Positions 4,871 through 51,079 of a DNA stretch of 64,000 bases are shown here, piece after piece. Numbering within the stretch: the first letter of the stretch is position 1; every line of letters begins with the position of its first letter. The position numbers and the translations under genes were made by a program. Below the pieces are notes generated by a model. That model ran no database searches and was not told the DNA's origin. It saw only the letters and a list, made by a program, of their open reading frames with translations. This DNA comes from an uncultured Chloroflexia bacterium (GTDB taxonomy: Bacteria > Chloroflexota > Limnocylindria > QHBO01), in assembly GCA_963822845.1 (NCBI GenBank), contig CAWGIY010000009.1, forward strand, positions 208,902-272,901. Direction: 5' to 3'.

Positions 4871-4894
4871 GGGGGTATATACGTATATACCCCC
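4871..4894. promoter_or_regulatory. perfect 24-nt AT-cored palindrome GGGGGTATATACGTATATACCCCC, 13 nt upstream of ispH
   Basis: Read directly; self-complementary; AT-rich core in a ~70% GC background; candidate operator/extended -10 element or RNA hairpin. Confidence 0.5.
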
Positions 4895-4907
4895 GAATCA
4901 CCCTAGA

Positions 4908-30197: not shown

Positions 30198-31156
30198 AGC
30201 CGAGCCACCTCTCCGACGAGGGCGAGCCGCGGATGGTCGACGTGGGCTCGAAGCCGGTGACCGCGCGGCGGGCCGTGGCGGCGGCGAAGGTCCGGATGCG
30301 CCCCGAGGTCCTGGCCACGCTGGTCGACGCCGGCGGACCCAAGGGCGACGCCTTCGTCACCGCTCGCCTCGCCGGCATCGGTGCCGCAAAGCGCACCGCG
30401 GAGCTGATCCCGCTCTGCCATCCGCTGCCGCTCGACCGGGTGGAGGTGGAGGTCACGCCGGGGGCTGACGGCGTCGTGGACATCCGTGCCGAGGTGGCCG
30501 CGACGGCCCGCACCGGCGTCGAGATGGAGGCGCTGACGGCCGCATCGGTCGCCGCACTGACGCTGTACGACATGGCCAAGGCGCTCCAGCGCGACATCGT
30601 CATCGAGTCGGTGCGGCTGGTCGAGAAGTCGGGAGGCCGATCCGGGTCGTTCTCGGCCGATGCCGCCACCGAGCGAGCCACCCACGAGGCGGTCGTCGTC
30701 ACCTGCTCGAACCGATCCGCGGCGGGGGAGCGCGAGGATGCCTCCGGCCCGGCGCTCGTGGCGGCGCTGAGTGACGCCGGCTTCGACGTGGCGCCCGAGC
30801 CGCTCGTCGTCCGCGACGACGAGGCCGAGATCGCCGCGCTGCTGGCGCGCCTGGCCGATGCCGGTCATCGGCTCGTCCTGACCACCGGCGGGACCGGCCT
30901 GACGCCGACCGACGTCACCCCGGCCGCGACGCGCCGGGTGATCGAGCGCGAGGCGCCCGGGCTCGCGGAGCTGATGCGCGCGGCGGGCGTGGCGCACACC
31001 CCGATGGCGGCGCTGTCGCGCGGCGTCGTCGGCACCCGGGGGCAGACGCTGATCGCGAACCTGCCCGGCTCGCCGAAGGGCGCGGCCGAGTCGTTGGCGG
31101 CGCTGCTGCCGGTGCTGCGCCATTCGCTCGAGCAGCTCGCCGGCGGGGACCACTGA
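30194..31156 (+). CDS. moaC: bifunctional molybdenum-cofactor protein: MoaC (cyclic pyranopterin monophosphate synthase) fused to a MogA/MoaB domain
   Basis: N-terminal MoaC (..[45 protein letters not shown]..) followed by MogA/MoaB (..[42 protein letters not shown]..). Confidence 0.8.
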
Positions 31157-31193
31157 TCGGTACCATCGAGCATCGACGAGCGGGAGGGCACCC

Positions 31194-32507
31194 ATGGCAA
31201 CCGACGAGACGAGTCAGGGCAGCCTGTCGGTCCGGCAGGCCGCGTTCATCGGTGTGGCGTCGATGGTGGGGGCCGGAATCTTCTCGCTGCTCGGCGCTGC
31301 GGGCGAGGTCGCAGGGTCCGCCGTCTGGCTGTCGTTCATCCTGGCCGGCGCCGTCGCGGTCCTGCAGGGCTACTCGTTCGCGAAGCTCGGCGCCCGCTAC
31401 CCGTCGTCGGGTGGGCTGCTCGAGTACGTCGTCCGCGGCTACGGCAACGGCCATGTGACCGGCGTCATCGCCTGGCTGGTGGTGGCGGTGAACGCGATCA
31501 TCACGGCGATGGTGGCGGTCTCGTTCGGCAGCTACGTGAGCTCGGCGATCGGGGCGGAGGACGGGGCATTCGCGACGAAGGCCTTCGCGGCGCTCCTCAT
31601 CGTCGCCATGACGGCCCTGAACGCCTTCGGGTCGCAGGCGGTGGCGAGGGTCCAGTCGGTCGTCGTGGTCGTCGTCATCGGCATCCTTTCGGTGTTCGCC
31701 GTGACGACGCTCGCGAACGCCGACTTCGAGCTGCTCGCGCCGGCTGGCTACCCACCGGCGGGCGACATCGTGGCCAGCGTGGCACTGACGTTCTTCGCGT
31801 TCCTCGGCTTCGGCGTGATCACGTTCACCGCGGTGCACCTGCCCGACCCGGTGCGGCAGCTGCCACGGGCCGTGTACCTCGCCCTCGGGATTGCGACCGC
31901 GATCTACGTGGCCGTGGCGCTGGGCGTGTTCGGGACGCTGACCGTTCAGCAGGTCATCGACTCCGGCGGGACGGCCCTGGCGGTCGCCGCGGAACCGGTG
32001 CTCGGGCAGGCCGGGTATTGGCTGATGACCGTCACCGCCCTCTTCGCCACCGCCGGTGCGACGAACGCGGGCCTGTATCCCGCCGCCGGCCTGACCGAGC
32101 ACCTGGCGTCGATCGGCCAGTTTCCGCCGTTGCTCGCCCGTCGATTCGGCGGACGGGCGCCGGCCGGCCTCATCGTGACGGCCGTCGTGTCGATCGTGCT
32201 GGCGGTCGGTTTCGACCTCAACGCCATCGCGTCGATCGGGAGCGCGGTGGCGCTGGTCGTCTTCACCCTCGTCGGAGTCGGTCACCTGCGCATCCGCGCC
32301 GAGACCGGCGCGAGTGCGCCGATCCTCGTGCTCGGCATCCTGGCCGCCGCCGTCGTGCTGCTGTTGTTCGCGCCAACGCTCGCGGAGGAACCGGCGACGG
32401 CGATCGCGCTCGTGTTCGTCCTGGCCCAGAGCGTGGTCCTGGACCTCATCTGGAAGCGGGTGCGCCGGGACCGCCCGAGCACACCGAGCCCCAATCCGGC
32501 CGCGTAG
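31194..32507 (+). CDS. APC-family amino acid permease
   Basis: 437 aa, 12 TM; ..FIGVASMVGAGIFSLLG.. signature. Confidence 0.75.
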   Translation: MATDETSQGSLSVRQAAFIGVASMVGAGIFSLLGAAGEVAGSAVWLSFILAGAVAVLQGYSFAKLGARYPSSGGLLEYVVRGYGNGHVTGVIAWLVVAVNAIITAMVAVSFGSYVSSAIGAEDGAFATKAFAALLIVAMTALNAFGSQAVARVQSVVVVVVIGILSVFAVTTLANADFELLAPAGYPPAGDIVASVALTFFAFLGFGVITFTAVHLPDPVRQLPRAVYLALGIATAIYVAVALGVFGTLTVQQVIDSGGTALAVAAEPVLGQAGYWLMTVTALFATAGATNAGLYPAAGLTEHLASIGQFPPLLARRFGGRAPAGLIVTAVVSIVLAVGFDLNAIASIGSAVALVVFTLVGVGHLRIRAETGASAPILVLGILAAAVVLLLFAPTLAEEPATAIALVFVLAQSVVLDLIWKRVRRDRPSTPSPNPAA

Positions 32508-32574
32508 GGGTCCCTGCCGCCGATCCACGTCCTGATGGGACACACCGATATCCGCCAGGGGAGAGGCGCTGCGC

Positions 32575-34830
32575 GTGACCCGGCGGGCCGCGCATGCGTC
32601 GCGGCTACCATTCGCGCCACGCATGGAACCCACGATTCCGCTCTATCCGCTGATCGTCGTGCCCGTGGCCGCGGCGATCATCGCCCTCTGGCGTCGCGGT
32701 CGATGGCACCTGGCGGTCCTGCGCAGCGGGAGGCCGCTGAACCGCACCGATCGGCCGTTGGAGCGCATCAAGGCGCTCGGGGTCTTCGTCTTCGGGCAGC
32801 GGCGACTGCTCCAGGACCCCGGACCGGGGCTGGCGCATGCATTCGTGTTCTGGGGCTTCGTCGTTCTGCTGGCGACGACCGGCAACTACATCACCAACGG
32901 CCTGGTGGAGACGATCGTCGGCTGGCCGCTTGGCGGCTTCTTCTGGAGCATCGTCGTCGTATTCGCGAACGTCTTCGTCGGGCTGGTGCTGGCATCGGTC
33001 ATCTACTACGTCGTGCGGCGGACGATCACCAGGCCAGCGAGGCTGGCGCTGACCCGCGATGCGTTCGTGATCCTGGGCCTGATCTTCTTCATCGTCCTGA
33101 CCGAGCTCATCGGTGATGCCTTCGCCTACGTCGTCGAGCCCGACCACCCGTCACGGACCTGGGCGGTGCTGGCCGGGCCGTTGAGCCTGGCGCTGGAGGG
33201 CATCGGTCAGGAGGCGGCGCAGATCGGCTTCGGCGCGATGGGGTGGGCGCACATCCTGCTCGTGCTCGCGTTCCTCGCGTACCTGCCGTTCAGCAAGCAC
33301 CTCCACATCATCAGCAGCGAGCCGAACGTCTATACCAAGAGCCTCGAGCCGCGAGGCGCGCTGCGGCTCATGGACCTCGAGGCCGAGCCCGAGGAGGGTG
33401 AGCCCGAGCCGGTATTCGGCGCGAAGGGCCTCAAGGACCTGACCTGGCGGCACCTGCTCGATCCGTTGGCCTGCACGGAGTGCGGACGGTGCATGGAGTT
33501 CTGCCCGGCATCGGTCACCGGCAAGACCCTCTCGCCGAAGCATCTGATGGAGGGGATGCGCGACCAGATCCTGGTCGCGGAGACGGCGCTGGCGGCGGCC
33601 GCATCGGCCCAGCGCGCCTGGAAGGGCGGAGCGAACGGCGGCGCGGCGGCCTCGGAGGAGGCGCTGAATCTCGCGCACCAGCGCGCGGAAGAGGCGCTGA
33701 GCCTGCCGCTCATGGACAACGCGATCCCGGAGGAGGCGGTCTGGCAGTGCACCACCTGCGGCTGGTGCGTCGAGGGCTGCCCGGTCCTCATCGAGCACGT
33801 CGACACGATCGTCGAGATCCGCCGCAATGCCGTCCTCGAGGAGTCGCGGTTCCCGAAGGAGCTCAACACGGCCTTCCGCAACATGGAGAACGCGGGCAAC
33901 CCGTGGGGCCAGCCGCGCTCCGCGCGACTGGACTGGGCGAAGGGGCTGGACGTCTCCGTCCTCGGCGAGACCGATACGCGCCTGGCGGTCGCCGACGGCA
34001 ACGGCGACGGTGCGCCATGGCGCACGATCTTCTCCTCCACGCCGATGACCGATGCGCTCGCCGGCAGCGTCCTGCTGTGGATCGGCTGCGCCGGCGCGTT
34101 CGACGATCGCAATCGCAAGGTCGTGCGGGCGATGGCCCAGCTCCTCAGGCAGGCCGAGGTGCCGTTCTCGGTCCTCGGGCCGCGCGAGACCTGCACCGGC
34201 GATCCCGCGCGGCGGGCCGGCAACGAGTACCTGTATCAGATGCTCGCCGAGGAGAACGTCGCGACGCTGTCATCGGTCCATGCCGAGCATGGGATCGGCA
34301 CGATCGTCGCGACCTGCCCGCACTGCTTCAACACGATCCGCAACGAGTACCCGCAGATGGGCCTCGCCGGCGTGCAGGTCATCCACCACACGCAGCTGCT
34401 CGACCGGCTGGTGGCGGAGGGGCGCCTGGTGCCGACCGAGCACCACGAGGCGCTCGTCGCCTACCACGACGCCTGCTACCTCGGGCGCTACAACCAGGTC
34501 TACGACGAGGGCCGTCGCGTGGTCGAGTCGGTGCCGGGCCAGTCGATCGTCGAGATGGACCTCCATCACCGCAAGGGCATGTGCTGCGGCGCGGGCGGCG
34601 CACGGATGTGGATGGAGGAGCGCGAGGGCACGCGGATCAACCACAAGCGCGTCGAGCAGGCGCTCGAGAAGTCGCCGGACGAGATCGCGACCTCGTGCCC
34701 GTTCTGCCTGATCATGCTCCGCGACGGCACGACCGACCTCGACCGGACCGATGTCGCCGTCCGCGACGTTGCGGAGCTGCTGGCCGACGCCACCGGCGCC
34801 TGGAATCGCGACGTGGGAGGCTCCGCCTAG
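32575..34830 (+). CDS. etfD: membrane-bound (Fe-S) oxidoreductase, EtfD / heterodisulfide-reductase-like (NarI-like cytochrome b domain, two 4Fe-4S motifs, CCG domains)
   Basis: N-terminal 5-6 TM with conserved His residues; CTECGRCMEFCP and CTTCGWCVEGCP ferredoxin motifs; C-terminal cysteine-rich CCG domains (..CPHCFNTI.., ..CYLGRYN.., ..CCGAGG.., ..CPFCLIML..). Matches the architecture of mycobacterial EtfD (Rv0338c) and sits upstream of ACAD-etfBA. Start may be the internal ATG ~32623. Confidence 0.7.
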   Translation: MTRRAAHASRLPFAPRMEPTIPLYPLIVVPVAAAIIALWRRGRWHLAVLRSGRPLNRTDRPLERIKALGVFVFGQRRLLQDPGPGLAHAFVFWGFVVLLATTGNYITNGLVETIVGWPLGGFFWSIVVVFANVFVGLVLASVIYYVVRRTITRPARLALTRDAFVILGLIFFIVLTELIGDAFAYVVEPDHPSRTWAVLAGPLSLALEGIGQEAAQIGFGAMGWAHILLVLAFLAYLPFSKHLHIISSEPNVYTKSLEPRGALRLMDLEAEPEEGEPEPVFGAKGLKDLTWRHLLDPLACTECGRCMEFCPASVTGKTLSPKHLMEGMRDQILVAETALAAAASAQRAWKGGANGGAAASEEALNLAHQRAEEALSLPLMDNAIPEEAVWQCTTCGWCVEGCPVLIEHVDTIVEIRRNAVLEESRFPKELNTAFRNMENAGNPWGQPRSARLDWAKGLDVSVLGETDTRLAVADGNGDGAPWRTIFSSTPMTDALAGSVLLWIGCAGAFDDRNRKVVRAMAQLLRQAEVPFSVLGPRETCTGDPARRAGNEYLYQMLAEENVATLSSVHAEHGIGTIVATCPHCFNTIRNEYPQMGLAGVQVIHHTQLLDRLVAEGRLVPTEHHEALVAYHDACYLGRYNQVYDEGRRVVESVPGQSIVEMDLHHRKGMCCGAGGARMWMEEREGTRINHKRVEQALEKSPDEIATSCPFCLIMLRDGTTDLDRTDVAVRDVAELLADATGAWNRDVGGSA

Positions 34831-34910
34831 GCCACGGAATCCGCAAGATCAGGCCAGCGAATCTGCGGAATTGTTGACCACGCAATCCGTCGCACCCTAG
34901 ACTTCGGCGC

Positions 34911-35396
34911 GTGGCCGTGAGCACGATCGCGCAGTCGGGCAAGCGCCCGGCCCTCGATGACCTCGACAAGGCGATCATCCGCTGCCTCCAGCTCGACGGG
35001 CGGCGCCCGTATGCGCAAATCGGGCGAGAGCTGAAAGTCCCCGAGGCGACGGTCCGCCAGCGAGCCGAGCGGCTGATCAGCCGCGGCGTGGTGCAGGTCG
35101 TCGGCGTGACCGATCCGCTGGCGATGGGCTTTCAGCAGCCGGCACTCATCGGCCTGAGAGTCGACGCCGCAAAGCTCGAGCAGATCGCCACGAAGATCGC
35201 CGCGCTCGACGAGGTGACCTACCTCGTCGTCACCGCCGGACGGTTCGACCTGATGTGCGAAGTCGTGTGCGAGGACAACGAGCACCTGATGCGGGTGCTG
35301 ACCCAGGACCTCGCCAAGATCCGCGGCATCCGATCCAGCGAGACGATGGTCGAGCTGCGGTTCGTCAAGGAGAGCTACCAGTGGGGGACACGCTAG
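34911..35396 (+). CDS. Lrp/AsnC-family transcriptional regulator
   Basis: 161 aa; HTH (..LDKAIIRCLQLDGRRPYAQIGRELKVPEATVRQRAERL..) and RAM domain. Confidence 0.8.
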   Translation: MAVSTIAQSGKRPALDDLDKAIIRCLQLDGRRPYAQIGRELKVPEATVRQRAERLISRGVVQVVGVTDPLAMGFQQPALIGLRVDAAKLEQIATKIAALDEVTYLVVTAGRFDLMCEVVCEDNEHLMRVLTQDLAKIRGIRSSETMVELRFVKESYQWGTR

Positions 35397-35406
35397 GAGG
35401 ACGGAC

Positions 35407-36837
35407 GTGACGGTCACTGGTCGGGGAGTGAATCGGGCACGCGTGGCCGAGATCGGCGCGCGCGAGGAGGAGGAATACCGCCGCCGCACCCGTCGCAGCG
35501 CCGACCTGTTCGAGCGCGCGGGTCGGTCCCTGCCGCTCGGCGTGGCCAGCTCGTTCCAGGCCTACGACCCCTACCCGCTGTTCATGACCGATGCCCGTGG
35601 CAGCCGCATCACCGATGCGGACGGAAACGAGTACATCGACTTCGACATGGCCTTCGGCGTGCTGGCCGCCGGGCACTCGCACCCGATCCTGGCCGAGGCG
35701 CTCCAGCACCGGGTGGCCAATGGGACGTGCTACACGTTCCCCGTCGAGGACGGCATCGCGCTGGCCGAGGAGATCAAGCAGCGCTTCGGCTGCGACCTCG
35801 TGCGCTTCAGCAACTCCGGCACCGAGGCGACGATGGACGCGATCCGCGTCGCCCGCGGCTACACCGGCCGCGAGAAGATCATCAAGTTCGAGGGCGGCTA
35901 CCACGGCCACCACGACGACGTCCTCGTCAGCATCCAGCCGCCGCGCGAGGCCATGGGGCCGATCGAGCAGCCGGCGACGGTGCCGGCCTCTGCGGGCATC
36001 CCGCGCTCCCGGATCGCGGAGACGGTGATCGCGCCGTTCAACGAGCCCGAGATCCTCGCGGGCATCCTCGAGGCCAACCGCGACGAGATCGCCGCGATCA
36101 TCGTCGAGCCGGTGCAGTTCAACATCGGCGTCGTGCCGCCGAAGCCCGGCTACCTCGAGCGGGTGCGCGAGCTCGCCACCGAGCATGGCGTCGTGCTCAT
36201 CTTCGACGAGGTGAAGACCGGCGTCGTGCTGGCCTGGGGCGGCGCCTTCGAGTACTTCGGCGTCCAGCCCGACCTCTTCTGCCTCGCCAAGAGCATCGGC
36301 GGCGGGATCCCGATCGGTGCCTTCGGCGGCCGCGGCGAGGTGATGCGGGTCATCGAGACGCTCGAGGGCAGCGGCGCGCCCGGTTCGGGCATCGACCGCT
36401 CGACGATCCCCGGTGGCGCCACGCGCGTCGCGCACCTGGGGACGTTCAATGGCAATCCGCTGTCGATGACGGCAGGGCTCGTGACGCTGACGCGGATCCT
36501 CACGAAGGACGCGTACCCCCGGCTGCACGCGATGGCCGATACCCTCACCGCGGGCTGCCAGGCGGTGCTCGACGAGTTCGAGCTGCCCGGCTACGCGATC
36601 AACGTCGGCCCGAAGGGCTGCGTGATGTTCACGCCGGAGCGCGTGACGAACTACCGCGACTTCATCGGCCTCGACGCCGAGCTGTGGGGAGCGTTCTTCC
36701 TGTTCCTGGCGAACCGCGGCATCCTCCTGCCGCCGGGACCAGACGACCAGTGGACGCTATCGGTCCAGCACACCGAGGCCGAGGTCGAACGCCACGTCGC
36801 GGTCTTCCGCGAGTTCGCCGCCGAGCTGACCGCCTGA
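35407..36837 (+). CDS. class-III (PLP-dependent) aminotransferase
   Basis: 476 aa; ..RFSNSGTEATMDAIRVARGYTGR.. and the ..LIFDEVKTGV.. lysine motif. Confidence 0.75.
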   Translation: MTVTGRGVNRARVAEIGAREEEEYRRRTRRSADLFERAGRSLPLGVASSFQAYDPYPLFMTDARGSRITDADGNEYIDFDMAFGVLAAGHSHPILAEALQHRVANGTCYTFPVEDGIALAEEIKQRFGCDLVRFSNSGTEATMDAIRVARGYTGREKIIKFEGGYHGHHDDVLVSIQPPREAMGPIEQPATVPASAGIPRSRIAETVIAPFNEPEILAGILEANRDEIAAIIVEPVQFNIGVVPPKPGYLERVRELATEHGVVLIFDEVKTGVVLAWGGAFEYFGVQPDLFCLAKSIGGGIPIGAFGGRGEVMRVIETLEGSGAPGSGIDRSTIPGGATRVAHLGTFNGNPLSMTAGLVTLTRILTKDAYPRLHAMADTLTAGCQAVLDEFELPGYAINVGPKGCVMFTPERVTNYRDFIGLDAELWGAFFLFLANRGILLPPGPDDQWTLSVQHTEAEVERHVAVFREFAAELTA

Positions 36838-36907
36838 CGTCGTGCCTCGTGGCACGACGATTGATGCGCAAGTGGAACGCGGGGCGTATGGGGGATGAGG
36901 AGGTAGG

Positions 36908-37780
36908 GTGATGCTCGAGCGCTGGGCGCTTCCGCTTCGCGGCCTGTCGAACGGGATCGCGTCGGCGATGCGGGGCTTCTACGGGGTCCTCGGCGGTCCG
37001 GGCAGGCTGCTCCAGGACTTCCTCAACGGCTCGTGGCTCGGGCACTCGCTGCATGCCGTGCTCGTCGACATCGTCATCGGCGGCGCGACCGTGGCGGTCC
37101 TTCTCGACGTGCTGCGGATCCTGTTCGGGGTGACCGGGCTCGAGGACGCGGCGTCCTGGACGGTTGGCCTCGTCTTCCTGTCAGCGCTCGGGGCCATCGT
37201 CACCGGCCTCACCGATTACAAGGACACGAACCACGACACGCCGGCGCGTGACGTCGCCGGACTGCACGGGCTCGTCAACATCGTGGCGACCGTCGGCTTC
37301 GGGATCTCCCTCTGGCTGCGCCTGGTCGACGCGCACGACGCCGGCTTCTGGGTGCTGCTCGTCTCGTACCTGGTCGTGAGCTTCGGCGGCTACATCGGCG
37401 GCCACATCGTCTTCAAGTACGGCTACATGGTGAACTTCAATGCCTTCGCGCGCGGGAAGAAGGCGGCCGAGTTCACGCCGGTCGTGCCCGCGGCCGAGGT
37501 GCCCGAGAACACGCCCACGAAGGTGACCTTCGGCGCCACGTCGGTCATGCTCGTCCGCCGCGGCGAGGTGGTGCACGCACTGAAGGAGAGCTGCTCGCAC
37601 CTGGGCGGACCGCTCTCGCAGGGTGAGCTCGACGGGGACCACATCAGCTGTCCGTGGCACTTCTCGGTGTTCCGCATCACCGATGGGGCCGTCGTGCACG
37701 GGCCGGCTTCGTCGCGCCAGGTGTCGTATCGAGCCCGTGTCAACGCCGGGCAGGTGGAGCTCCAGGGCCCGCACGACTGA
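36908..37780 (+). CDS. DUF2231-like membrane domain fused to a C-terminal Rieske [2Fe-2S] domain
   Basis: N-terminal 4 TM; C-terminal CSHLGGPL ... CPWHFSVF (CxH...CxxH Rieske ligands). Confidence 0.65.
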   Translation: MMLERWALPLRGLSNGIASAMRGFYGVLGGPGRLLQDFLNGSWLGHSLHAVLVDIVIGGATVAVLLDVLRILFGVTGLEDAASWTVGLVFLSALGAIVTGLTDYKDTNHDTPARDVAGLHGLVNIVATVGFGISLWLRLVDAHDAGFWVLLVSYLVVSFGGYIGGHIVFKYGYMVNFNAFARGKKAAEFTPVVPAAEVPENTPTKVTFGATSVMLVRRGEVVHALKESCSHLGGPLSQGELDGDHISCPWHFSVFRITDGAVVHGPASSRQVSYRARVNAGQVELQGPHD

Positions 37781-37790
37781 GCTCCTCGGC

Positions 37791-37815
37791 TGCGTATATA
37801 CATATATACCCCGAC
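37791..37815. promoter_or_regulatory. AT-rich near-palindrome CGTATATACATATATACCCC upstream of the acyl-CoA dehydrogenase gene
   Basis: Same GGGGTATATA(C/T)GTATATAC core as the ispH palindrome; intergenic, ~75 nt upstream of the ACAD start. Confidence 0.45.
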
Positions 37816-37887
37816 TGCCTCGACCGGCGCATCGTCTAGACTTCACGGCCCCGAGCCCGCACCCGAACTTCGCCGCGAGGAGTCCGC

Positions 37888-39054
37888 GTGACCTACCTGC
37901 CCAGCGCCGAGCACGACGAGCTGCGCGCCGTCGTGCGCGAGCTGGCCACCGAGCGCATCGCGCCGCGGGCCGCCGAGATCGACGAGAAGGGCGAATTCCC
38001 GCACGACCTCAAGGATCTGCTGGCCCAGCAGGACCTGCTCGGAACGTGCTTCGAGGAGCGCCACGGCGGGACGAACCTGGACACGGTCGCGCAATGCATC
38101 CTCGTCGAGGAGATCGCCCGGGCCGACGCGACCACCAGCCTCATCCCGATCGTCCAGAAGCTCGGTGCGCTGCCGATCCTGCTGGCCGGGACGGACGAAC
38201 AGCAGGACCGATACCTCCCTCGGCTGGCCTCGGGCGAGTGGCTCGTCGCCTTCGCGCTCACCGAGGCCGCCGCCGGCAGTGACGTGGCATCGAACCGGAT
38301 GCGGGCGACCCGAGACGGCGACGAGTACGTCCTCAACGGCTCGAAACGTTTCATCACGCACGGGAGCGTCGCGAACCTGCTGACGGTCTTCGCCCTCACC
38401 GACCCGGCGGCCGGCGGCCGGAAGGGGATGAGCGCCTTCATCGTCGAGGCCGACAGTCCCGGCTTCGCCGCTCCGCGGGTCGAGCACAAGATGGGCATCC
38501 GCGGCTCGCCGACCGCCGAGCTGACCTTCGACGACGTCCGCGTGTCCGGCGGCAACCGGCTCGGCGATGAGGGGGAGGGCTTCCGGATCGCGATGGAGAC
38601 GCTCGATCGGTCCCGGCTGAGCATCGCGGCCCAGGCCGTCGGGATCGCGCAGGGGGCATTGGACACATCGGTCTCGTACGCGGCCGACCGGACGCAGTTC
38701 GGCGAGCGCGTGGCCGACTTCCAGGGCATCCAGTTCATGCTGGCCGACATGGCCTCGCAGACCGAGGCCGCACGCCAGCTCACCTATGCCGCCGCGGCGA
38801 TGGTCGACGCGAAGGCACACGACCTGCCGTACTGGACCAGCAGCGCGAAGCTCGTCGCCGGCGACACCGCCATGCGGGTCACCACCGACGCCGTCCAGGT
38901 GCTGGGCGGATACGGCTACATCACCGAATACCCCGTCGAGCGGATGATGCGTGACGCAAAGATCACCCAGCTCTACGAGGGGACCCAGCAGATCCAGCGC
39001 CTCATCGTCGCGCGCCAGCTCCTCCAGCGGGCAGGCGCGGGGCGGCGGGGCTGA
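37888..39054 (+). CDS. acyl-CoA dehydrogenase
   Basis: 388 aa; ACAD N-, middle and C-terminal domains (..AFALTEAAAGSDVAS.., ..YEGTQQIQRLIVAR..). Confidence 0.85.
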   Translation: MTYLPSAEHDELRAVVRELATERIAPRAAEIDEKGEFPHDLKDLLAQQDLLGTCFEERHGGTNLDTVAQCILVEEIARADATTSLIPIVQKLGALPILLAGTDEQQDRYLPRLASGEWLVAFALTEAAAGSDVASNRMRATRDGDEYVLNGSKRFITHGSVANLLTVFALTDPAAGGRKGMSAFIVEADSPGFAAPRVEHKMGIRGSPTAELTFDDVRVSGGNRLGDEGEGFRIAMETLDRSRLSIAAQAVGIAQGALDTSVSYAADRTQFGERVADFQGIQFMLADMASQTEAARQLTYAAAAMVDAKAHDLPYWTSSAKLVAGDTAMRVTTDAVQVLGGYGYITEYPVERMMRDAKITQLYEGTQQIQRLIVARQLLQRAGAGRRG

Positions 39055-39077
39055 ATGAGGAGCGAAGCCGCGAACCG

Positions 39078-39860
39078 ATGAAGATCGTCGTCACCATCAA
39101 GCAGGTCCCGGCCACCGGCGCCGACAAGCGCTACACCGATGACCTGCGCCTCGACCGCGCCGGCGTCGAGGCCATCATCAACCCGCTCGACGAGTACGCC
39201 ATCGAACAGGCACTGCGCCTGGCCGATGCGGGCTCCGTCGACGCGATCACATATCTGTCGATGGGGCCGGCCACCGCGGCCGAGGCGCTGCGGCGCGCGC
39301 TCGCGATGGGCGGTGACGACGCCGTGCTCGTGACCGATGACGCCCTGGCTGGCGCCGACGAGTGGGCGACCGCTCGCGTCCTTGCCGCCGCGCTCGACAA
39401 GCTTGCCCCGGACGTCGCGCTCATGGGCATGGCCTCCGACGACGCGCGCGGCTCGCTCGTACCGGGCGCGGTCGCCGCGATTCGCAACCTCCCGCTGCTG
39501 TCGTACGGGTCGGAGCTGGCCCTCGCCGATGGCGAGGCCCGCATTCGCCGCCTGTCGGCGACCGGGTTCGACTGGATCAGCGCCCCGCTGCCGGTCGTCG
39601 CGACCGTCACCGACCAGGTGGGCGAGCCGCGCTACGCCAGCCTCAAGGGCATCATGGCCGCCAAGCGCAAGCCGCTCGAGACATGGTCGCTCGCCGATGT
39701 CGAGCTGTCGGCCGACGACCTCAAGGGCGCGGCGCTGACGCAGGTCACCGATGCCCGTCCCCCGGAGGCCAAGGGGCCGACGGAGCGGATCGAGAACCTC
39801 CCCGCCGCCGATGCCGCGACGAAGATCGCGGACTGGCTGGCCGCACGGAAGCTGATCTGA
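39078..39860 (+). CDS. etfB: electron transfer flavoprotein beta subunit
   Basis: 260 aa; [11 protein letters not shown].. and the rest are typical EtfB/FixA. Confidence 0.85.
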
Positions 39861-40840
39861 TGAGCACCGACATCCTCTTCCTCGCCGAGTTCGCTGGCGG
39901 CTCGCCGGCCCGATCGGCCCTCGAGCTCGCCGCCGGCGCGTCGGATCTGGCGTCGCAGTCCGGCGGCTCGGCGGTCGCCCTCGCCTACGGCCCGGGCGCC
40001 GCGTCCGGCGCGGCTGGCCTCGGGGCGGCCGGTGCCGCGCGCGCCATCGTCCTCGGCGACGAGGAGCGGCCGGCGATCACGTACGCCCCCGCCGCCATCG
40101 CCGCCGCGCGCGACGCCGGCCTGGCAGTGCTGGCCCCGGCGACGCCGAACGGCCGGGACCTCGCCGCCGCGCTCGTCGGTAGCCTGCACCTGCCGGCCTT
40201 CGGGCCGGTCCGCGCCGCGCGCGTCGTGGACGGAACCATCGAGCTCGAGCAGTCGACCCTGCAGGGCAGCGTCGTCACGACCTCGCGACCCGTGGACGGG
40301 GCGCCGGCGCCGGCGGTCGTGCTCGTCCTGGCGAACACGTTCACCCCGGGCGACGGCGGGTCCGGCACGGCGGAGATCAGCGAGGCACCCGCGGCGGAGG
40401 ATTCGGCGCTCACCAAGGTGGCCGTCGCGGAGAGCCACCCGGCCGACGCGAAGGTCGTCGACCTCGAGGAGGCGACGATCATCGTGGCCGGCGGCCGCGG
40501 CGTGGGCGGCGAGGAGGGCTTCGCGCCGCTGCGCGAGCTGGCGGCTGCCCTCGGCGGCGCCGTCGGCGCCAGCAGGGCGGCCGCGGACGCGGGCTGGATC
40601 CCGTATCAGCTCCAGATCGGCCAGACCGGCAAGGTGGTGAAGCCCTCGCTCTACATCGGTGCCGGAATCAGTGGTGCGATCCAGCACCGGGTGGGGATGC
40701 AGACCGCCGAGCACGTGATCGCGATCAACAAGGATCCCGACGCTCCGATCGGCGAGTTCGCCGATTTGTTCGTGGTGGGCGACCTGTTCCAGATCGTGCC
40801 CGCGCTCACCGCAGAGATCCGGAAGCGCAAGGGTTCGTAG
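39860..40840 (+). CDS. etfA: electron transfer flavoprotein alpha subunit
   Basis: 326 aa; ATG overlaps the etfB stop (TGATG); FAD-binding C-terminus (..[15 protein letters not shown]..). Confidence 0.85.
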
Positions 40841-40855
40841 GGTAGGATCGGGCCG

Positions 40856-41374
40856 ATGCGCGGACTGTTCGGCGGTCGACGGAGGAGCGTGTTCAGGCCC
40901 GGCAAGGAGCTGGGCCAGTACCGCAACGAGCTGCACGAGCGCACGCAGCGCATCGACACGCGCCTCGGGCAGGTGGCCGACGAGATCGAGGCGCTCCGCC
41001 GGCGCGACATCGAACCCGACACGGCGATCGAGCGGCTGACCATCCACGAGGAGGCACTCGAGGAGGAGTCCGAAGGGCTCCAGGAGATGCTGGCGCCCGA
41101 GGAGCTCCACGGGCTGCACATGGAGTACGAGGCGAACCTCGAGCGGTCGCTGCGCGGCATCCTCGTCGTCGAGCGCGGCTGCGCCATCACCCGCATGCCC
41201 CACCGACCGCCCGAGGACGAGGAGCCGTACACGTACTACAAGCGGGGCTCCGGCAACGTGACCCACGCGCGGATGCGGATGGTGGAGATCGTCCAGGTGC
41301 TCCTCACCTGGGAGCCCGGCCTGCCGGCCGACGCGACGGTGGCGACGCGGATGGAGCGCGCCAAGAAGGCATAG
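40856..41374 (+). CDS. hypothetical protein (charged / coiled-coil-like)
   Basis: 172 aa ORF with no recognisable motif. Confidence 0.35.
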   Translation: MRGLFGGRRRSVFRPGKELGQYRNELHERTQRIDTRLGQVADEIEALRRRDIEPDTAIERLTIHEEALEEESEGLQEMLAPEELHGLHMEYEANLERSLRGILVVERGCAITRMPHRPPEDEEPYTYYKRGSGNVTHARMRMVEIVQVLLTWEPGLPADATVATRMERAKKA

Positions 41375-41377
41375 CCT

Positions 41378-42442
41378 TCAGCGGGTCAGCGTCACCTTGC
41401 CGAGACCGTCCGGCGCGTCGGGATTGACCCCGCGCTTCGTGGCGACGGCCTCCACCAGGAGCTGGCCGGGCACGACGAACAGCAGCGGGGTGAGCGCCTC
41501 CGGCAGCGAGTGGGGGAGCGAGAGTGCCTCGGGCCGCCCCGAGGTCTCACCGCCGCCGAACACGGTGGTTCGTCCGCCGCGCGCCGCGACTGCGGCCAGG
41601 GTCGCGTCGACGTCGCCACCCATCAGGCCGTCCGGCCGGATGGCCAGCGTCGGTACGCCCGCCTGTGCCAGCACGAGCGGGCCGTGCATGAAGTCCGCGG
41701 TCGAGTACGCCTCGGCGAAGAGGCCGCACGTCTCTTTGAGCTTGAGGGCCAGCTCGAGGGCGGTGGCCAGGTTGAAGCCACGCGACACGAGCAGTGCCCG
41801 ATCCCCGGCGGCGAACGTGTCGACCGCGGGCGCGCCCGGCCCGGTCAGCCAGTCGCGGGTTCGCGCGATCGTGACGCGCAGCGCGCCGGGCAGCGCGGCA
41901 AGGCCGTCGCCGAGCGCCGGCGTGGGCCGGATCGCGTTCGTCAGGGCACCGACCACGGCGAGCTCGGTCACGTAGGTCTTCGTGGCCGGCACCGCCAGCT
42001 CGCGTCCGGCGTGGATGTGGAGCGCCAGCTCAGCCGCGGCCGCCAGCGGCGAGGTCGGTTCGTTCGTGATCGCCACGGTCAGCGCACCGCTGCGGCGCGC
42101 GGCCTCGACCACGGCGACGACGTCTGGGCTCTGGCCCGACTGCGAGATCGCGACGACGAGCCCGCCGCGCCAGTCGAGCCTGGCGCCGTAGACGGTCGTG
42201 ACGGACGGCTTGACGAGCCCGGTCGGGAGCCCGAGGTGCGTCTCGAACAGGTACTGCGCGTACACGGCGGCGTGGTCCGAGGTCCCGCGGCCGGCGATCA
42301 TGATCCAGCGCGGGTTCGCTCGACCGATGGCCGAGGCGACGGTCGCGAGCTGGTCGGGCTCGTCGATGACGCGCTGAACGGCGGCGGGGATCTGGCCGAT
42401 CTCGCGGCCCATCCGCGTCTGGGAGCGGGCCGCTTCGATCAT
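41378..42442 (-). CDS. SIS-domain (double) sugar-phosphate isomerase/deaminase, GlmS-C-terminal-like
   Basis: 354 aa; two SIS modules (..IMIAGRGTSDHAAVYAQYL.., ..VVAISQSGQSPDVV..); no glutaminase domain. Confidence 0.7.
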   Translation of the reverse strand: MIEAARSQTRMGREIGQIPAAVQRVIDEPDQLATVASAIGRANPRWIMIAGRGTSDHAAVYAQYLFETHLGLPTGLVKPSVTTVYGARLDWRGGLVVAISQSGQSPDVVAVVEAARRSGALTVAITNEPTSPLAAAAELALHIHAGRELAVPATKTYVTELAVVGALTNAIRPTPALGDGLAALPGALRVTIARTRDWLTGPGAPAVDTFAAGDRALLVSRGFNLATALELALKLKETCGLFAEAYSTADFMHGPLVLAQAGVPTLAIRPDGLMGGDVDATLAAVAARGGRTTVFGGGETSGRPEALSLPHSLPEALTPLLFVVPGQLLVEAVATKRGVNPDAPDGLGKVTLTR

Positions 42443-49943: not shown

Positions 49944-51079
49944 ATGACCTCCGAGGAGACCCGCGACGGCGTCCCGCTGACGAACCTCGACCAGCCGCTG
50001 TTCGAAGGGGCGGAAGCGACAAAGCGCGACCTGGTCGACTACCTCGACGCCGTCCGCGACCGGATCCTGCCCGAACTGGCGGACAGGCCGCTATCGGTGA
50101 TCCGGGTGCATCGGGGCCAGGAGGCCTTCATGCAGAAGAACGTGCCGCGCTCCACGCCGGAGTGGGTGCGCACGGTCAGCCTCTGGTCGGAGAGCTCGCG
50201 CCGTGACGTCGCCTACGCGCTGTGCAACGACCGACGCACGCTCGTCTGGTTCGCCAACCAGCGGGCGGTCGAGTACCACCCGACCCTCGTGCGCGTGGAG
50301 CGCTTCGAGAGCCCGACGCACCTCGTCATCGACCTCGATCCGCCCGACGCCGGTGCCTTCGCCATGGCGGTGAGTGCCGCCCACCTGGTGCGGGCGGCGC
50401 TCGCCGAGGTGGGCATGGCGGCGCCGTGAAGACGAGCGGCGCGAAAGGCCTGCACGTGTACGTCCCGGTGGAGGGCGAGCCGTCCATGGCCGATGCGGCC
50501 GCCGCCACCCGGGCGATCGCCGAGCGGGCGACGCGCCTCGACCCATCGATCGCCACGACGGCATTCATGAAGGAGGACCGCGACGGGAAGGTCTTCATCG
50601 ACGCGACGCGCGTCGGCTGGGCCTCGGTCATCTCTGCGTACAGCCCACGAGCCCGGCCCGGCACGCCCGTGTCGTTTCCGGTCGCATGGGATGATCTCGA
50701 CGACGTGTCGCCGACGGAGTTCACGATCCACACCGCGGTCGGGCATCTCGGCGACCGTGACCCGTGGGCCGAGGCGATGCCGACCCCCCAGGCGCTGAGT
50801 CCCTCGCTGATCGAGGAGGGCGCATCGATCCCGGGGGGCCGCGTCCAGGCCATGCACGAGGGGAAGCGGCGCGCGCGTGCGCCGTCGCGCGTCCGGGACC
50901 TCCGTGACGAGCGGGTGCCTGCCGGGAGCGGGGCGTCCGCCCGTCAGCGATTAAGGCATTGGGTGCTATATCGGCTGACACCAGTGGGAGGGGGGAGAGT
51001 CGGTCCGTATATCCGGTATATACCCTCGGCGCCCCAACAGGTTGTGGTATCGTTCGCGGGGGTACCACCACTGGTATAG
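49944..51079 (+). CDS. stand-alone LigD-type NHEJ polymerase/primase domain (PolDom), frameshift near 50425, with low-complexity C-terminal extension
   Basis: ..LVWFANQRAVEYHP..LVIDLDPPD.. (ORF 49944..50429) continues as ..VKTSGAKGLHVYVPV..FIDATR.. in ORF 50222..51079. Confidence 0.7.
51005..51025. promoter_or_regulatory. AT-rich GTATAT-CCG-GTATATAC motif ~70 nt upstream of nrdR
   Basis: Third occurrence of the GTATATAC family; lies inside the unusual C-terminal tail of the PolDom ORF. Confidence 0.4.

What the first reader, a model, noticed from the sequence alone, without database searches (positions are those of the whole stretch)
32575..40840. Membrane EtfD-like Fe-S oxidoreductase clustered with Rieske fusion, ACAD and etfBA
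The 751-aa product has a NarI-like di-haem membrane domain, two 4Fe-4S motifs and CCG domains. This is the architecture of the mycobacterial ETF:menaquinone oxidoreductase EtfD (Rv0338c). In Mycobacterium tuberculosis EtfD is encoded far from etfBA. Here it is 3 kb upstream of an acyl-CoA dehydrogenase-etfB-etfA block, with an Lrp regulator, a class-III aminotransferase and a DUF2231-Rieske fusion in between. A physically linked ACAD -> ETF -> EtfD -> quinone chain, possibly with an extra Rieske electron carrier and amine substrate input, would be a compact module worth testing.
Basis: partly seen in the sequence, partly recalled or inferred. Interest (0 to 1): 0.55.

Follow-up and report, generated by a model that had tools for sequence, protein, structure and literature searches.

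The report
EtfD beside ACAD-etfBA in Limnocylindria
The 751-codon gene is a genuine EtfD/EMO-type membrane enzyme next to the genome's only electron-transfer flavoprotein genes, but this linkage is common and already described, so the finding is a correct, ordinary annotation with one family-specific insertion of unknown meaning.

Summary
Observation confirmed. All seven genes are present on the + strand with the stated domains. Three starts need correcting: EtfD ATG 32623 (735 aa), Rieske fusion ATG 36911, etfA ATG 39860.

The large protein aligns end to end with the solved M. smegmatis EtfD (9OJN, E 1e-129). It keeps every haem, [4Fe-4S], linear-[3Fe-4S] and non-cubane-cluster ligand.

The organism is not an actinobacterium. 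Its nearest relatives are Chloroflexota MAGs, mostly labelled class Limnocylindria.

The genome holds one EtfD, one etfBA pair, four ACADs and no ETF-QO, so this is the housekeeping ACAD→ETF→EtfD chain.

EtfD lies beside ACAD-etfBA in other Limnocylindria families. It lies within 10 kb of etfB/A in 36 of 80 species-representative loci from many phyla. Linkage was published for Syntrophomonas wolfei in 2013.

Lrp, the HemL-like aminotransferase and the DUF2231-Rieske gene were found between EtfD and the ACAD only in this family. Each is lost individually in some members. Distant Rieske-fusion homologues are never near ETF genes. Promoter-like boxes suggest separate transcription units in this genome.

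"Di-haem", an extra Rieske carrier and amine input are not supported. The quinone acceptor is unresolved, because no MenB or MqnA/D was found in the genus.

Verdict: new member of a known kind, low interest.

The parts
32623..34830 (+). etfD / EMO-type ETF:quinone oxidoreductase. N-terminal membrane cytochrome-b domain, two cubane [4Fe-4S] sites and two CCG domains. The mechanical ORF starts at GTG 32575; the probable start is ATG 32623 (735 aa).
   Evidence: PDB 9OJN_A matches at E 1.2e-129 over residues 26-738 against 10-743. All cofactor ligands were verified. Pfam finds CCG x2 and Fer4. The start Met is conserved in relatives.
32606..32611 (+). -10-like box TACCAT, 11 nt before the ATG of etfD (possible own promoter with a short leader)
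   Evidence: Read from the sequence. The nucleotides upstream of the ATG are conserved in relatives. This is an inference, not a mapped promoter.
34874..34903 (+). Sigma-70-like promoter candidate TTGACC-18-TAGACT, directly before the Lrp gene
   Evidence: It is the only promoter-like hit in 31000-41600. A consensus match only.
34911..35396 (+). Lrp/AsnC-family regulator. Absent from this position in several sister-genus loci.
   Evidence: Pfam HTH_AsnC + AsnC_trans_reg. No Lrp match in L051, L056, L057 and L150-L153.
35407..36837 (+). GSAM (HemL)-like class-III aminotransferase paralogue. It is not the canonical HemL. An SD-type AGGAGG lies 5 nt after the Lrp stop.
   Evidence: Pfam Aminotran_3. 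TIGR00713 scores 373.7 bits against a cut-off of 527.3. Congeners carry a separate canonical hemL next to hemB as well as this orthologue. The best PDB matches are GSAMs, then beta-transaminases.
36838..36859 (+). 9-bp perfect hairpin (CGTCGTGCC-TCGT-GGCACGACG) immediately after the aminotransferase stop. There is no T-run, so its role is unknown.
   Evidence: Read from the sequence. The terminator scan did not call it.
36911..37780 (+). DUF2231 four-helix membrane domain fused to a Rieske [2Fe-2S] ferredoxin domain that is probably cytoplasmic (289 aa)
   Evidence: Pfam DUF2231 + Rieske. CxH and CxxH boxes are present. AF2 model: pLDDT 94.5, four long helices followed by a Rieske domain. The Rieske domain matches dioxygenase-type Rieske ferredoxins at Z 17.8. 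H45, H48 and H119 are nearly invariant in the membrane part.
37837..37842 (+). -10-like box TAGACT about 45 nt upstream of the ACAD start. An equivalent box is conserved upstream of the ACAD in nearly all relatives.
   Evidence: Inference only.
37888..39054 (+). Short/medium-chain-type acyl-CoA dehydrogenase, the conserved partner of etfBA across the class
   Evidence: Three Pfam ACAD domains. The best PDB matches are 8I4P/7W0J ACADs at E 1e-131. Orthologues at 60-64% identity sit next to etfBA in another family.
39078..39860 (+). etfB (ETF small subunit). It lacks the DGDTAQ signature of bifurcating ETFs.
   Evidence: Pfam ETF. The zipper region reads S-D-D-A-R-G where Bf-ETFs have D-G-D-T-A-Q.
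39860..40840 (+). etfA (ETF large subunit), translationally coupled to etfB (TGATG)
   Evidence: Pfam ETF_alpha. Start read. This is the only ETF pair in the genome.
40856..41374 (+). Conserved 172-aa protein of unknown function that follows etfA throughout the family and, weakly, in other families. It has its own TAGGAT box 7 nt before the ATG.
   Evidence: Synteny. No Pfam or NCBIfam family. Box read.

Best explanation
This locus encodes the organism's single, general-purpose route for electrons from acyl-CoA dehydrogenases into the respiratory chain.

Proposed path:
- The ACAD at 37888, and the three other ACADs elsewhere in the genome, reduce the non-bifurcating EtfBA.
- Reduced ETF docks on the cytoplasmic CCG domains of EtfD.
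- Electrons then run through the linear [3Fe-4S] / non-cubane [4Fe-4S] pair, two cubane [4Fe-4S] clusters and a b haem to a membrane quinone. This is the path seen in M. smegmatis EtfD.

Shown here:
- Homology to the solved EtfD, with every cofactor ligand conserved.
- EtfD and ETF are each single-copy in the genome.
- No ETF-QO is present.
- The linkage is conserved in the class and common in other phyla.

Inferred: the electron path, the ETF partnership and the quinone acceptor.

The three genes between etfD and the ACAD are Lrp, a HemL-like aminotransferase and a DUF2231-Rieske membrane protein. They are best read as an insertion specific to this Limnocylindria family at a variable junction. 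In this genome they probably have their own promoter. No functional tie to the ETF chain is demonstrated.
For: Identity as EtfD:
- Match to 9OJN_A at E 1.2e-129 over the full length.
- Ligands conserved: H88/H244; C300, C303, C306, C402; C310, C392, C395, C398; C505, C540, C581, C584 plus T541; C634, C670, C671, C708, C711 plus H583. Quinone-site F95/F233 are also present. Verified and invariant across seven Limnocylindria sequences, except T541 (T/N) and F95 (F/S).
- NCBIfam GlpC, LdhH, TfrB, DsrK and HdrC hits cover only the C-terminal half and fall far below their cut-offs.

Genome content: one EtfD, one etfBA pair, four ACADs, no ETF-QO domain, and a haem-copper oxidase is present.

Synteny:
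- Every genus member examined has the same order.
- Family f3 has MoeA-MoaC-EtfD-[0.4-5.7 kb]-ACAD-EtfB-EtfA; unrelated or unidentified genes were found in the larger gaps examined.
- Family f2 has ACAD-EtfD-EtfB-EtfA-ACAD.
- 36 of 80 species-representative EtfD loci have etfB/A within 10 kb, 15 of them within 400 bp. Of the 42 loci with at least 8 kb on both flanks, 23 are linked.

Literature:
- EtfD function and ETF partnership: PMC8593149.
- EtfD structure: PMC13083937.
- EMO is the same family as EtfD: bioRxiv 10.64898/2026.08.18.745454.
- etfBA + DUF224 are clustered and co-expressed in S. wolfei: PMC3582634.

ETF type: EtfB lacks the DGDTAQ signature of bifurcating ETFs.

The intervening genes are an insertion:
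- Lrp has no match in L051, L056, L057 and L150-L153. The Rieske gene is absent in L057. AT3 is absent in L150.
- Families f2 and f5 carry the Rieske fusion on contigs other than the one holding EtfD.
- Fifteen distant Rieske-fusion homologues have no EtfD, ACAD, Etf or AT3 within 8 kb.
- -10-like boxes lie before etfD, Lrp, the ACAD and orf172.
Against: - No expression, biochemical or cofactor data exist for this uncultured lineage.
- The acceptor quinone is not established. No MenB or MqnA/D was found in 19 genus genomes. The only MenA-like hit is below cut-off and lies about 16 kb from the cox genes, so it may be a haem O synthase.
- hemA and hemB were not found in this genome, although EtfD and the oxidase need haem.
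- In sister genera the Rieske gene ends 9-32 nt before the ACAD start with no -10 box (L051, L151). There the inserted genes are probably co-transcribed with ACAD-etfBA, and the arrangement is kept across at least five genera. A functional link is therefore not excluded.
- The EtfB 'zipper' also differs from the canonical group-1 motif DDDxNQ, so the ETF subgroup is not settled.
Confidence: 0.75

Rival explanations
1. The inserted genes belong to the module. The HemL-like aminotransferase feeds an amine-derived substrate towards the ACAD. The membrane-tethered Rieske protein is an additional electron carrier, either a second entry or exit between ETF/EtfD and the membrane, or an alternative acceptor in a lineage with no recognisable menaquinone pathway.
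For: - The EtfD-AT3-Rieske-ACAD-EtfB-EtfA order is kept across at least five genera of the family, at 55-60% Rieske identity.
- Gaps are only 9-50 nt in sister genera, which suggests co-transcription there.
- The Rieske domain is probably cytoplasmic, judged by the positive-inside rule on the sequence and the helices. It could therefore meet ETF.
- The DUF2231 part has three nearly invariant His residues.
- Families without MenB (f1, f2, f5) mostly carry the fusion.
- Earlier notes from this scan place DUF2231 in other redox modules. These are unchecked leads.
Against: - The association was found in only one family. In f2 and f5 the fusion lies on other contigs than EtfD.
- 15 of 15 distant homologues have no ETF, ACAD, EtfD or AT3 within 8 kb, and their neighbours are heterogeneous.
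- AT3 and the Rieske gene are each lost separately (L150, L057).
- Three of ten family genomes lack the fusion.
- No dehydrogenase, CoA ligase or CoA transferase is present that could turn a transamination product into an acyl-CoA.
- This genome has its own promoter-like boxes before Lrp and before the ACAD.
- The MenB pattern rests on a few related genomes.
Confidence: 0.13
2. The 735-aa protein is not an ETF oxidoreductase. It is another HdrD/GlpC/LutA-type CCG enzyme, such as a membrane lactate, glycerol-3-phosphate or disulfide reductase, that merely lies near etf genes.
For: - The CCG and Fer4 domains are shared with GlpC, LdhH, TfrB, DsrK and HdrD.
- Earlier scan notes report EtfD-like proteins coupled to non-ETF partners in other genomes. 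These are unchecked.
Against: - All of those NCBIfam hits are 3- to 20-fold below their cut-offs and cover only residues ~380-740.
- The match to EtfD is full length, membrane domain included, with the EtfD-specific Thr (linear 3Fe-4S) and His583 ligands.
- Adjacency to etfBA recurs across phyla.
- No other ETF acceptor (ETF-QO) is present.
Confidence: 0.05
3. ACAD-EtfBA is a bifurcating Bcd/Etf-type complex (NADH + ferredoxin + enoyl-CoA), with EtfD serving some other function.
For: - The best PDB matches of EtfB and EtfA include bifurcating ETFs: CarD 6FAH at 133.6 bits, 5OL2, 7KOE.
- The best NCBIfam match of the ACAD is AcrC, below cut-off.
Against: - The EtfB zipper is SDDARG, not DGDTAQ. 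Thr is 100% conserved in 216 bifurcating ETFs (PMC8958531).
- Scores to non-bifurcating ETFs are nearly as high: 1O94 at 110.6 bits, 1EFP at 97.5 bits.
- The organism has a haem-copper oxidase.
- EtfA has no ferredoxin domain.
Confidence: 0.03

Closest known systems
Mycobacterial EtfD (M. tuberculosis Rv0338c; M. smegmatis EtfD, PDB 9OJN; PMC8593149, PMC13083937)
   Same: - Full-length homologue (E 1e-129).
- Same domain order: membrane haem-b domain, two cubane [4Fe-4S] sites, two CCG domains.
- Every ligand of haem b and clusters D1-D4 is kept, including the Thr that dictates a linear [3Fe-4S] cluster and the His that completes the non-cubane cluster.
- Quinone-site Phe85/Phe230 equivalents are present.
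- It co-occurs with a single EtfBA.
   Different: - It lacks the ~265-residue disordered C-terminal tail (735 aa against 1042 aa).
- It comes from Chloroflexota, not Actinomycetota.
- It is encoded next to ACAD-etfBA, whereas the mycobacterial, Pseudonocardia and Frankia genes are unlinked.
- No menaquinone pathway markers were found in the genus.
- The Arg137 equivalent is Tyr in the printed alignment.
EMO, the ETF:(methyl)menaquinone oxidoreductase (DUF224 protein) of syntrophs: S. aciditrophicus EMO and S. wolfei Swol_0698 with etfBA Swol_0696-0697 (PMC3582634; bioRxiv 10.64898/2026.08.18.745454)
   Same: - Same protein family.
- The gene is clustered with etfBA, as it is here.
- The three haem-ligand His residues conserved across EMO membrane domains are present (H88, H226, H244).
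   Different: [quoted passage not shown]
- This protein carries the MsEtfD-type Thr at the D1 site and comes from an organism with a haem-copper oxidase.
- Its haem number could not be determined here.
HdrDE heterodisulfide reductase, and GlpC/LutA/LdhH-type CCG proteins
   Same: CCG and ferredoxin-like domains, and a NarI/HdrE-like membrane haem domain.
   Different: - This protein is a single polypeptide.
- NCBIfam scores are far below every cut-off.
- Its cluster ligands are of the shielded, non-catalytic EtfD type (Thr and His in place of the Hdr cysteines).
Soluble Rieske ferredoxins of ring-hydroxylating dioxygenases (CarAc 3GCE, NdoA 2QPZ, TodB 3DQY). This comparison concerns the neighbouring DUF2231-Rieske gene.
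   Same: - Fold match at Z 17-18, rmsd 1.4-1.6 A over ~102 residues.
- CxH / CxxH ligands are present.
   Different: - The domain is fused to a four-helix DUF2231 membrane domain with conserved His residues.
- No oxygenase or reductase partner lies in the locus.
- The fusion is widespread: 134 representative clusters at E <= 1e-30, and 52 of 151 Chloroflexota genomes.
- I found no paper on its function. The only paper in the library that holds the word DUF2231 is a database survey of DUF proteins.

Membership tests
EtfD / EMO (ETF:menaquinone oxidoreductase) | Full-length sequence homology to an experimentally characterised member, membrane domain included | tested here: met
   9OJN_A matches at E 1.2e-129 and 436.9 bits, residues 26-738 against 10-743.
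EtfD / EMO (ETF:menaquinone oxidoreductase) | Proximal haem b axial His pair (Ms His78/His241) and the third His conserved in EMO membrane domains (Ms His223) | tested here: met
   H88, H244 and H226 are present and invariant in seven Limnocylindria sequences. Haem occupancy itself cannot be tested with these tools.
EtfD / EMO (ETF:menaquinone oxidoreductase) | Eight Cys ligands of the two cubane [4Fe-4S] clusters (D3, D4) | tested here: met
   C300, C303, C306, C402 and C310, C392, C395, C398 are all present and invariant.
EtfD / EMO (ETF:menaquinone oxidoreductase) | CCG-domain ligands of D1 (four Cys, with Thr in place of the Hdr Cys) and D2 (five Cys + His583) | tested here: met
   C505, C540, C581, C584 and T541; C634, C670, C671, C708, C711 and H583. 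T541 is Thr or Asn across the class.
EtfD / EMO (ETF:menaquinone oxidoreductase) | Co-occurrence with an EtfBA partner and absence of another ETF acceptor | tested here: met
   A single etfBA pair lies 4.2 kb downstream. No ETF-QO domain was found.
EtfD / EMO (ETF:menaquinone oxidoreductase) | A menaquinone-type acceptor is available in the organism | tested here: inconclusive
   MenB (TIGR01929) and MqnA/D (PF02621) were not found in G000 or in 18 congeners. The MenA-like hit scores 81 bits, below the 102-bit cut-off. The genomes are MAGs and other routes were not examined.
EtfD / EMO (ETF:menaquinone oxidoreductase) | ETF-dependent quinone reductase activity | not testable with these tools
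   Needs biochemistry.
Bifurcating (group 2) ETF | EtfB 'zipper' signature D-G-D-T-A-Q (Thr 100% conserved; PMC8958531) | tested here: not met
   In HMMER alignments to 6FAH_B, 5OL2_B and 4KPU_B the query reads S-D-D-A-R-G at that place.
Canonical (group 1) ETF | EtfB zipper D-D-D-x-N-Q (PMC8958531) | tested here: not met
   The query reads S-D-D-A-R-G. Only the acidic pair is shared, so the ETF subgroup is left open.
HemL (glutamate-1-semialdehyde 2,1-aminomutase) | Score above the TIGR00713 cut-off and a role as the genome's hemL next to the hem genes | tested here: not met
   373.7 bits against a cut-off of 527.3. Congeners G014, G017 and G002 have a separate hemL (513-533 bits) next to hemB, in addition to this orthologue.
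GlpC / LutA / LdhH / HdrD-type CCG enzymes | Score above the family cut-off over the full family model | tested here: not met
   TfrB scores 138 against 385, LdhH 97 against 800, GlpC 76 against 278, DsrK 36 against 400. All hits cover only the C-terminal half.
Rieske [2Fe-2S] ferredoxin (applies to 36911-37780) | CxH...CxxH ligand boxes and the Rieske fold | tested here: met
   CSH and CPWH boxes. Pfam Rieske at 64.8 bits. Z 17.8 to 3GCE.
Single etfD-to-etfA operon | No internal promoters or terminators; tight or overlapping gene junctions | tested here: inconclusive
   Only etfB/etfA overlap. Other gaps are 10-107 nt. -10-like boxes lie before Lrp and the ACAD, and the one before the ACAD is conserved in relatives. 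No transcript data exist.

The most novel reading that the evidence does not exclude
In one Limnocylindria family, a DUF2231-anchored cytoplasmic Rieske protein and a HemL-like aminotransferase have been recruited into the etfD-ACAD-etfBA cluster. The Rieske protein would act as a previously undescribed membrane electron entry or exit for the ETF system. It might compensate for the lack of any recognisable menaquinone pathway in these aerobes.
Probability: 0.1. Interest if true: 0.6.

Novelty: new member of a known kind. Interest (0 to 1): 0.22.

Why it matters
This is mainly a clean annotation. It extends a structurally defined EtfD, with its unusual linear [3Fe-4S] signature intact, to an abundant uncultured soil and freshwater class of Chloroflexota.

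It also shows that the unlinked mycobacterial layout is the exception. In more than half of the well-flanked species loci sampled, etfD lies within 10 kb of etfBA.

That gene neighbourhood is independent support for the ETF-EtfD partnership. In mycobacteria the partnership was inferred from co-occurrence and pull-downs.

The open questions are side issues:
- what DUF2231-Rieske proteins do;
- which quinone, and which haem supply, this genus uses.

Tried and rejected
- The aminotransferase as the genome's real HemL, which would link it to the haem need of EtfD. Rejected: congeners carry a separate canonical hemL beside hemB as well as this paralogue, and G000 lacks hemA and hemB altogether.
- The GTATATAC palindrome upstream of the ACAD as a conserved operator. 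Rejected: it is absent from the same spacer in the 95%-identical relative G010 and in all other relatives.
- A known fold for the DUF2231 domain. Foldseek and VIA-wide returned only generic four-helix bundles, designed proteins and CoxIII-like segments at Z 11-14. That is within the noise for helical bundles.
- Genomic context of distant Rieske-fusion homologues through the look-up of encoding contigs. I used the genome search and the fetch from genomes instead.
- Motif definitions from Garcia Costas et al. 2017. The paper is not held. I used the zipper signature from PMC8958531 instead.
- Terminator scan. It found nothing meaningful between the genes.
- Haem number (one as in MsEtfD, or three as in SaEMO). 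It could not be decided, because no SaEMO sequence or structure was available to align.

Full report
**What is there**

The window has 70% G+C and lies on contig 9 of a 2.55-Mb, nine-contig genome that is 93% complete. On the + strand it carries, in order:
- an M50-CBS peptidase, MoeA and a MoaC-MoaB fusion;
- an APC-type amino-acid permease (31194-32507);
- the 751-codon ORF (32575-34830);
- an Lrp/AsnC regulator (34911-35396);
- a class-III aminotransferase (35407-36837);
- a DUF2231-Rieske fusion (36908-37780);
- an acyl-CoA dehydrogenase (37888-39054);
- etfB (39078-39860) and etfA (ending at 40840);
- a 172-aa ORF with no family.

A GH4/SIS sugar locus follows on the opposite strand.

Three starts need adjusting.
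- EtfD most likely begins at ATG 32623. That Met is conserved in every relative, and the alignment to the mycobacterial protein then starts at the same residue number.
- The Rieske fusion begins at ATG 36911, giving the 289 aa that all its homologues have.
- etfA begins at ATG 39860 and overlaps the etfB stop as TGATG.

**Identity of the large protein**

It aligns over its whole length (residues 26-738 against 10-743) with the cryo-EM-solved M. smegmatis EtfD, PDB 9OJN, at E 1.2e-129. I took the cofactor ligands from the structure paper (PMC13083937) and checked each one in the alignment and in the sequence.
- Haem His78/His241 correspond to H88/H244.
- Cluster D4 corresponds to C300, C303, C306 and C402.
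- Cluster D3 corresponds to C310, C392, C395 and C398.
- The linear [3Fe-4S] cluster D1 corresponds to C505, C540, C581 and C584, with T541 at the position where Hdr enzymes have Cys.
- The non-cubane cluster D2 corresponds to C634, C670, C671, C708 and C711, plus H583.
- The quinone-site Phe85/Phe230 correspond to F95/F233.
- Arg306 and Arg150 correspond to R305 and R156.

All the Cys and His ligands are invariant in seven Limnocylindria homologues. NCBIfam models for TfrB, LdhH, GlpC, DsrK and HdrC hit only the C-terminal half and score far below their cut-offs.

The protein lacks the roughly 265-residue disordered tail of the mycobacterial enzyme.

'Di-haem' is not established. MsEtfD holds a single b haem. 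The syntroph enzyme SaEMO holds three. The third His shared by all EMO membrane domains is present here as H226 (bioRxiv 10.64898/2026.08.18.745454). I could not decide which state applies.

**Whose genome it is**

The nearest loci, with 71-86% EtfD identity, come mostly from MAGs labelled Candidatus Limnocylindria or 'uncultured Chloroflexia'. The host is therefore a Chloroflexota bacterium, not an actinobacterium as the comparison with M. tuberculosis implied.

**A housekeeping chain, not a dedicated module**

The genome has:
- one EtfD, plus one unrelated CCG protein;
- one etfB/etfA pair, the pair in this window;
- four ACADs on three contigs;
- no ETF-QO domain;
- a haem-copper oxidase.

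EtfB lacks the DGDTAQ 'zipper' that marks bifurcating ETFs. It reads SDDARG at that place in alignments to 6FAH, 5OL2 and 4KPU. The most economical reading is the general ACAD → ETF → EtfD → quinone route established for mycobacteria (PMC8593149).

**How unusual the linkage is**

It is not unusual.
- All same-genus genomes with enough contig show the same gene order.
- Another Limnocylindria family (f3) has MoeA-MoaC-EtfD-[0.4-5.7 kb]-ACAD-EtfB-EtfA.
- A third family (f2) has ACAD-EtfD-EtfB-EtfA-ACAD.
- Among 80 species-representative loci recovered with an EtfD profile, 36 carry etfB or etfA within 10 kb, and 15 of those are within 400 bp.
- Of the 42 loci with at least 8 kb on both flanks, 23 are linked.

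The linked loci come from Ktedonobacteria, Acidobacteriota, Gemmatimonadota, Sericytochromatia, Desulfobacterota, Thermoleophilia, Acidimicrobiales and a Bacillus. The Mycobacteriales, Pseudonocardia and Frankia loci are unlinked. The clustering and co-expression of etfBA with the DUF224/EMO gene was reported for S. wolfei in 2013 (PMC3582634). Beites et al. argued from co-occurrence, not from neighbourhood.

**The three genes in between**

They were found at this junction only in this family (f1), and each can be missing.
- Lrp has no match in L051, L056, L057 and L150-L153.
- The Rieske gene is missing in L057.
- The aminotransferase is missing in L150.
- Three of ten family genomes have no Rieske fusion at all.

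In family f3 the same junction holds unrelated or unidentified genes. The ORFs I scanned gave a methyltransferase, an ABC ATPase and an FtsX permease; the rest had no Pfam family. In families f2 and f5 a full-length Rieske-fusion homologue exists, but on a different contig from EtfD.

The fusion architecture is widespread. It forms 134 representative clusters at E <= 1e-30 and occurs in 52 of 151 Chloroflexota genomes. Fifteen distant homologues (32-40% identity) have no EtfD, ACAD, Etf or AT3 within 8 kb. The neighbours I scanned in five of these loci are heterogeneous: a PucR regulator, a P450-BM3-like fusion, luciferase-like monooxygenases, an isocitrate/isopropylmalate dehydrogenase, ArsR and SRPBCC proteins, and an M24 peptidase.

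The aminotransferase is a HemL-like paralogue, not HemL itself. It scores 374 bits against the 527-bit cut-off. Congeners carry a separate canonical hemL beside hemB in addition to this gene. The locus has no dehydrogenase, CoA ligase or CoA transferase that could convert a transamination product into an acyl-CoA.

**The Rieske fusion itself**

An AF2 model (pLDDT 94.5) gives two N-terminal helices, four long helices (47-170) and a Rieske domain. The Rieske domain superposes on dioxygenase-type Rieske ferredoxins at Z 17-18. Basic residues flank the bundle at both ends (sequence), which places the Rieske domain in the cytoplasm. This is an inference.

The membrane part has nearly invariant H45, H48 and H119, but it has no significant structural relative. 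Its function remains unknown. Earlier notes from this scan that place DUF2231 in other redox modules are leads only.

**Transcription units (inferred)**

In this G+C-rich DNA, TANNNT boxes stand out:
- 11 nt before the etfD ATG (TACCAT);
- as TTGACC-18-TAGACT before Lrp, which is the only hit of the promoter scan;
- about 45 nt before the ACAD start (TAGACT);
- 7 nt before orf172.

The box before the ACAD is conserved in nearly all relatives, including family f3. The aminotransferase, Rieske and etfB genes have only Shine-Dalgarno-type sequences. In this genome that suggests the units etfD | Lrp-AT3(-Rieske) | ACAD-etfBA | orf172.

In sister genera the Rieske gene ends 9-32 nt before the ACAD start and there is no box (L051, L151). 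Co-transcription is likely there. For that reason I keep a 10-15% chance that the inserted genes are functionally tied to the ETF system.

**Loose ends**

- MenB and MqnA/D were not found in this genome or in 18 congeners, whereas family f3 has adjacent menA-menB.
- hemA and hemB were not found here. hemB was not found in 8 of 18 congeners, including near-complete assemblies with few contigs.
- The quinone acceptor and the haem supply of EtfD in this lineage are therefore open.

**Provenance caveats**

- Genus tallies include the unpublished genome G006, and phylum tallies include G068 and G170. No conclusion rests on these genomes alone.
- This scan has noted EtfD-type proteins many times on other DNA. 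None of the notes shown describes this Limnocylindria arrangement.

**Verdict**

This is a new member of a known kind, and the interest is low.

Noticed in passing
whole genome G000 and its genus (not in the window): No classical (MenB) or futalosine (MqnA/D) menaquinone marker was found in G000 or in 18 congeners, nor in family f2. Family f3 has adjacent menA-menB. G000's only MenA-like hit scores 81 bits (below cut-off) and lies ~16 kb from coxI, so it may be a haem O synthase. These aerobes encode a quinone-dependent EtfD and a haem-copper oxidase but have no recognised quinone pathway.
   Followed up: partly
whole genome G000 and its genus: hemA (GlutR) and hemB (ALAD) were not found in G000, which is 93% complete in 9 contigs. 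hemB was not found in 8 of 18 congeners, including G009 and G018 (94-95% complete). Other congeners have a hemB-hemL cluster. This could be haem auxotrophy in a subclade or a recurrent assembly gap.
   Followed up: partly
window 40856-41374: A 172-aa protein with no Pfam or NCBIfam family follows etfA in every family member. Weak homologues (24-30% identity) follow etfA in another Limnocylindria family. It has its own TAGGAT box 7 nt before the ATG.
   Followed up: partly
window 37793-37812 (also 4875-4900, 51016-51030): The GTATATAC-type AT-rich palindrome upstream of the ACAD is absent from the same spacer in the 95%-identical relative G010, which has a GGATCCGCGCTCGCGGATCC palindrome there. 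It is also absent in all other relatives. The element is strain-specific and not a conserved operator of the ACAD-etfBA unit.
   Followed up: partly
window 31194-32507: The APC-family amino-acid permease directly upstream of etfD is present only in some genus members (G000, G010, G018). In the others MoaCB abuts etfD.
   Followed up: yes
G008:C2:274378-275245 and G009:C10:454581-455448 (relatives): In two congeners the DUF2231-Rieske gene is matched in two pieces that break near residues 116-126. This may be a frameshift or an assembly indel.
   Followed up: no
G000:C7:94652-95398 (outside the window): A second CCG-domain protein (31% identity to the EtfD C-terminus, ~424-aa frame) lies ~2.5 kb from another ACAD-domain gene in an unusually long 816-aa open frame (C7:97943-98371).
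   Followed up: no
L058:12125-13210 (family f3 relative): In one f3 genome the gene between etfD and the ACAD is a UbiE/COQ5-like methyltransferase (Pfam Ubie_methyltran, 41.6 bits). It is a possible quinone methyltransferase next to the quinone reductase.
   Followed up: no
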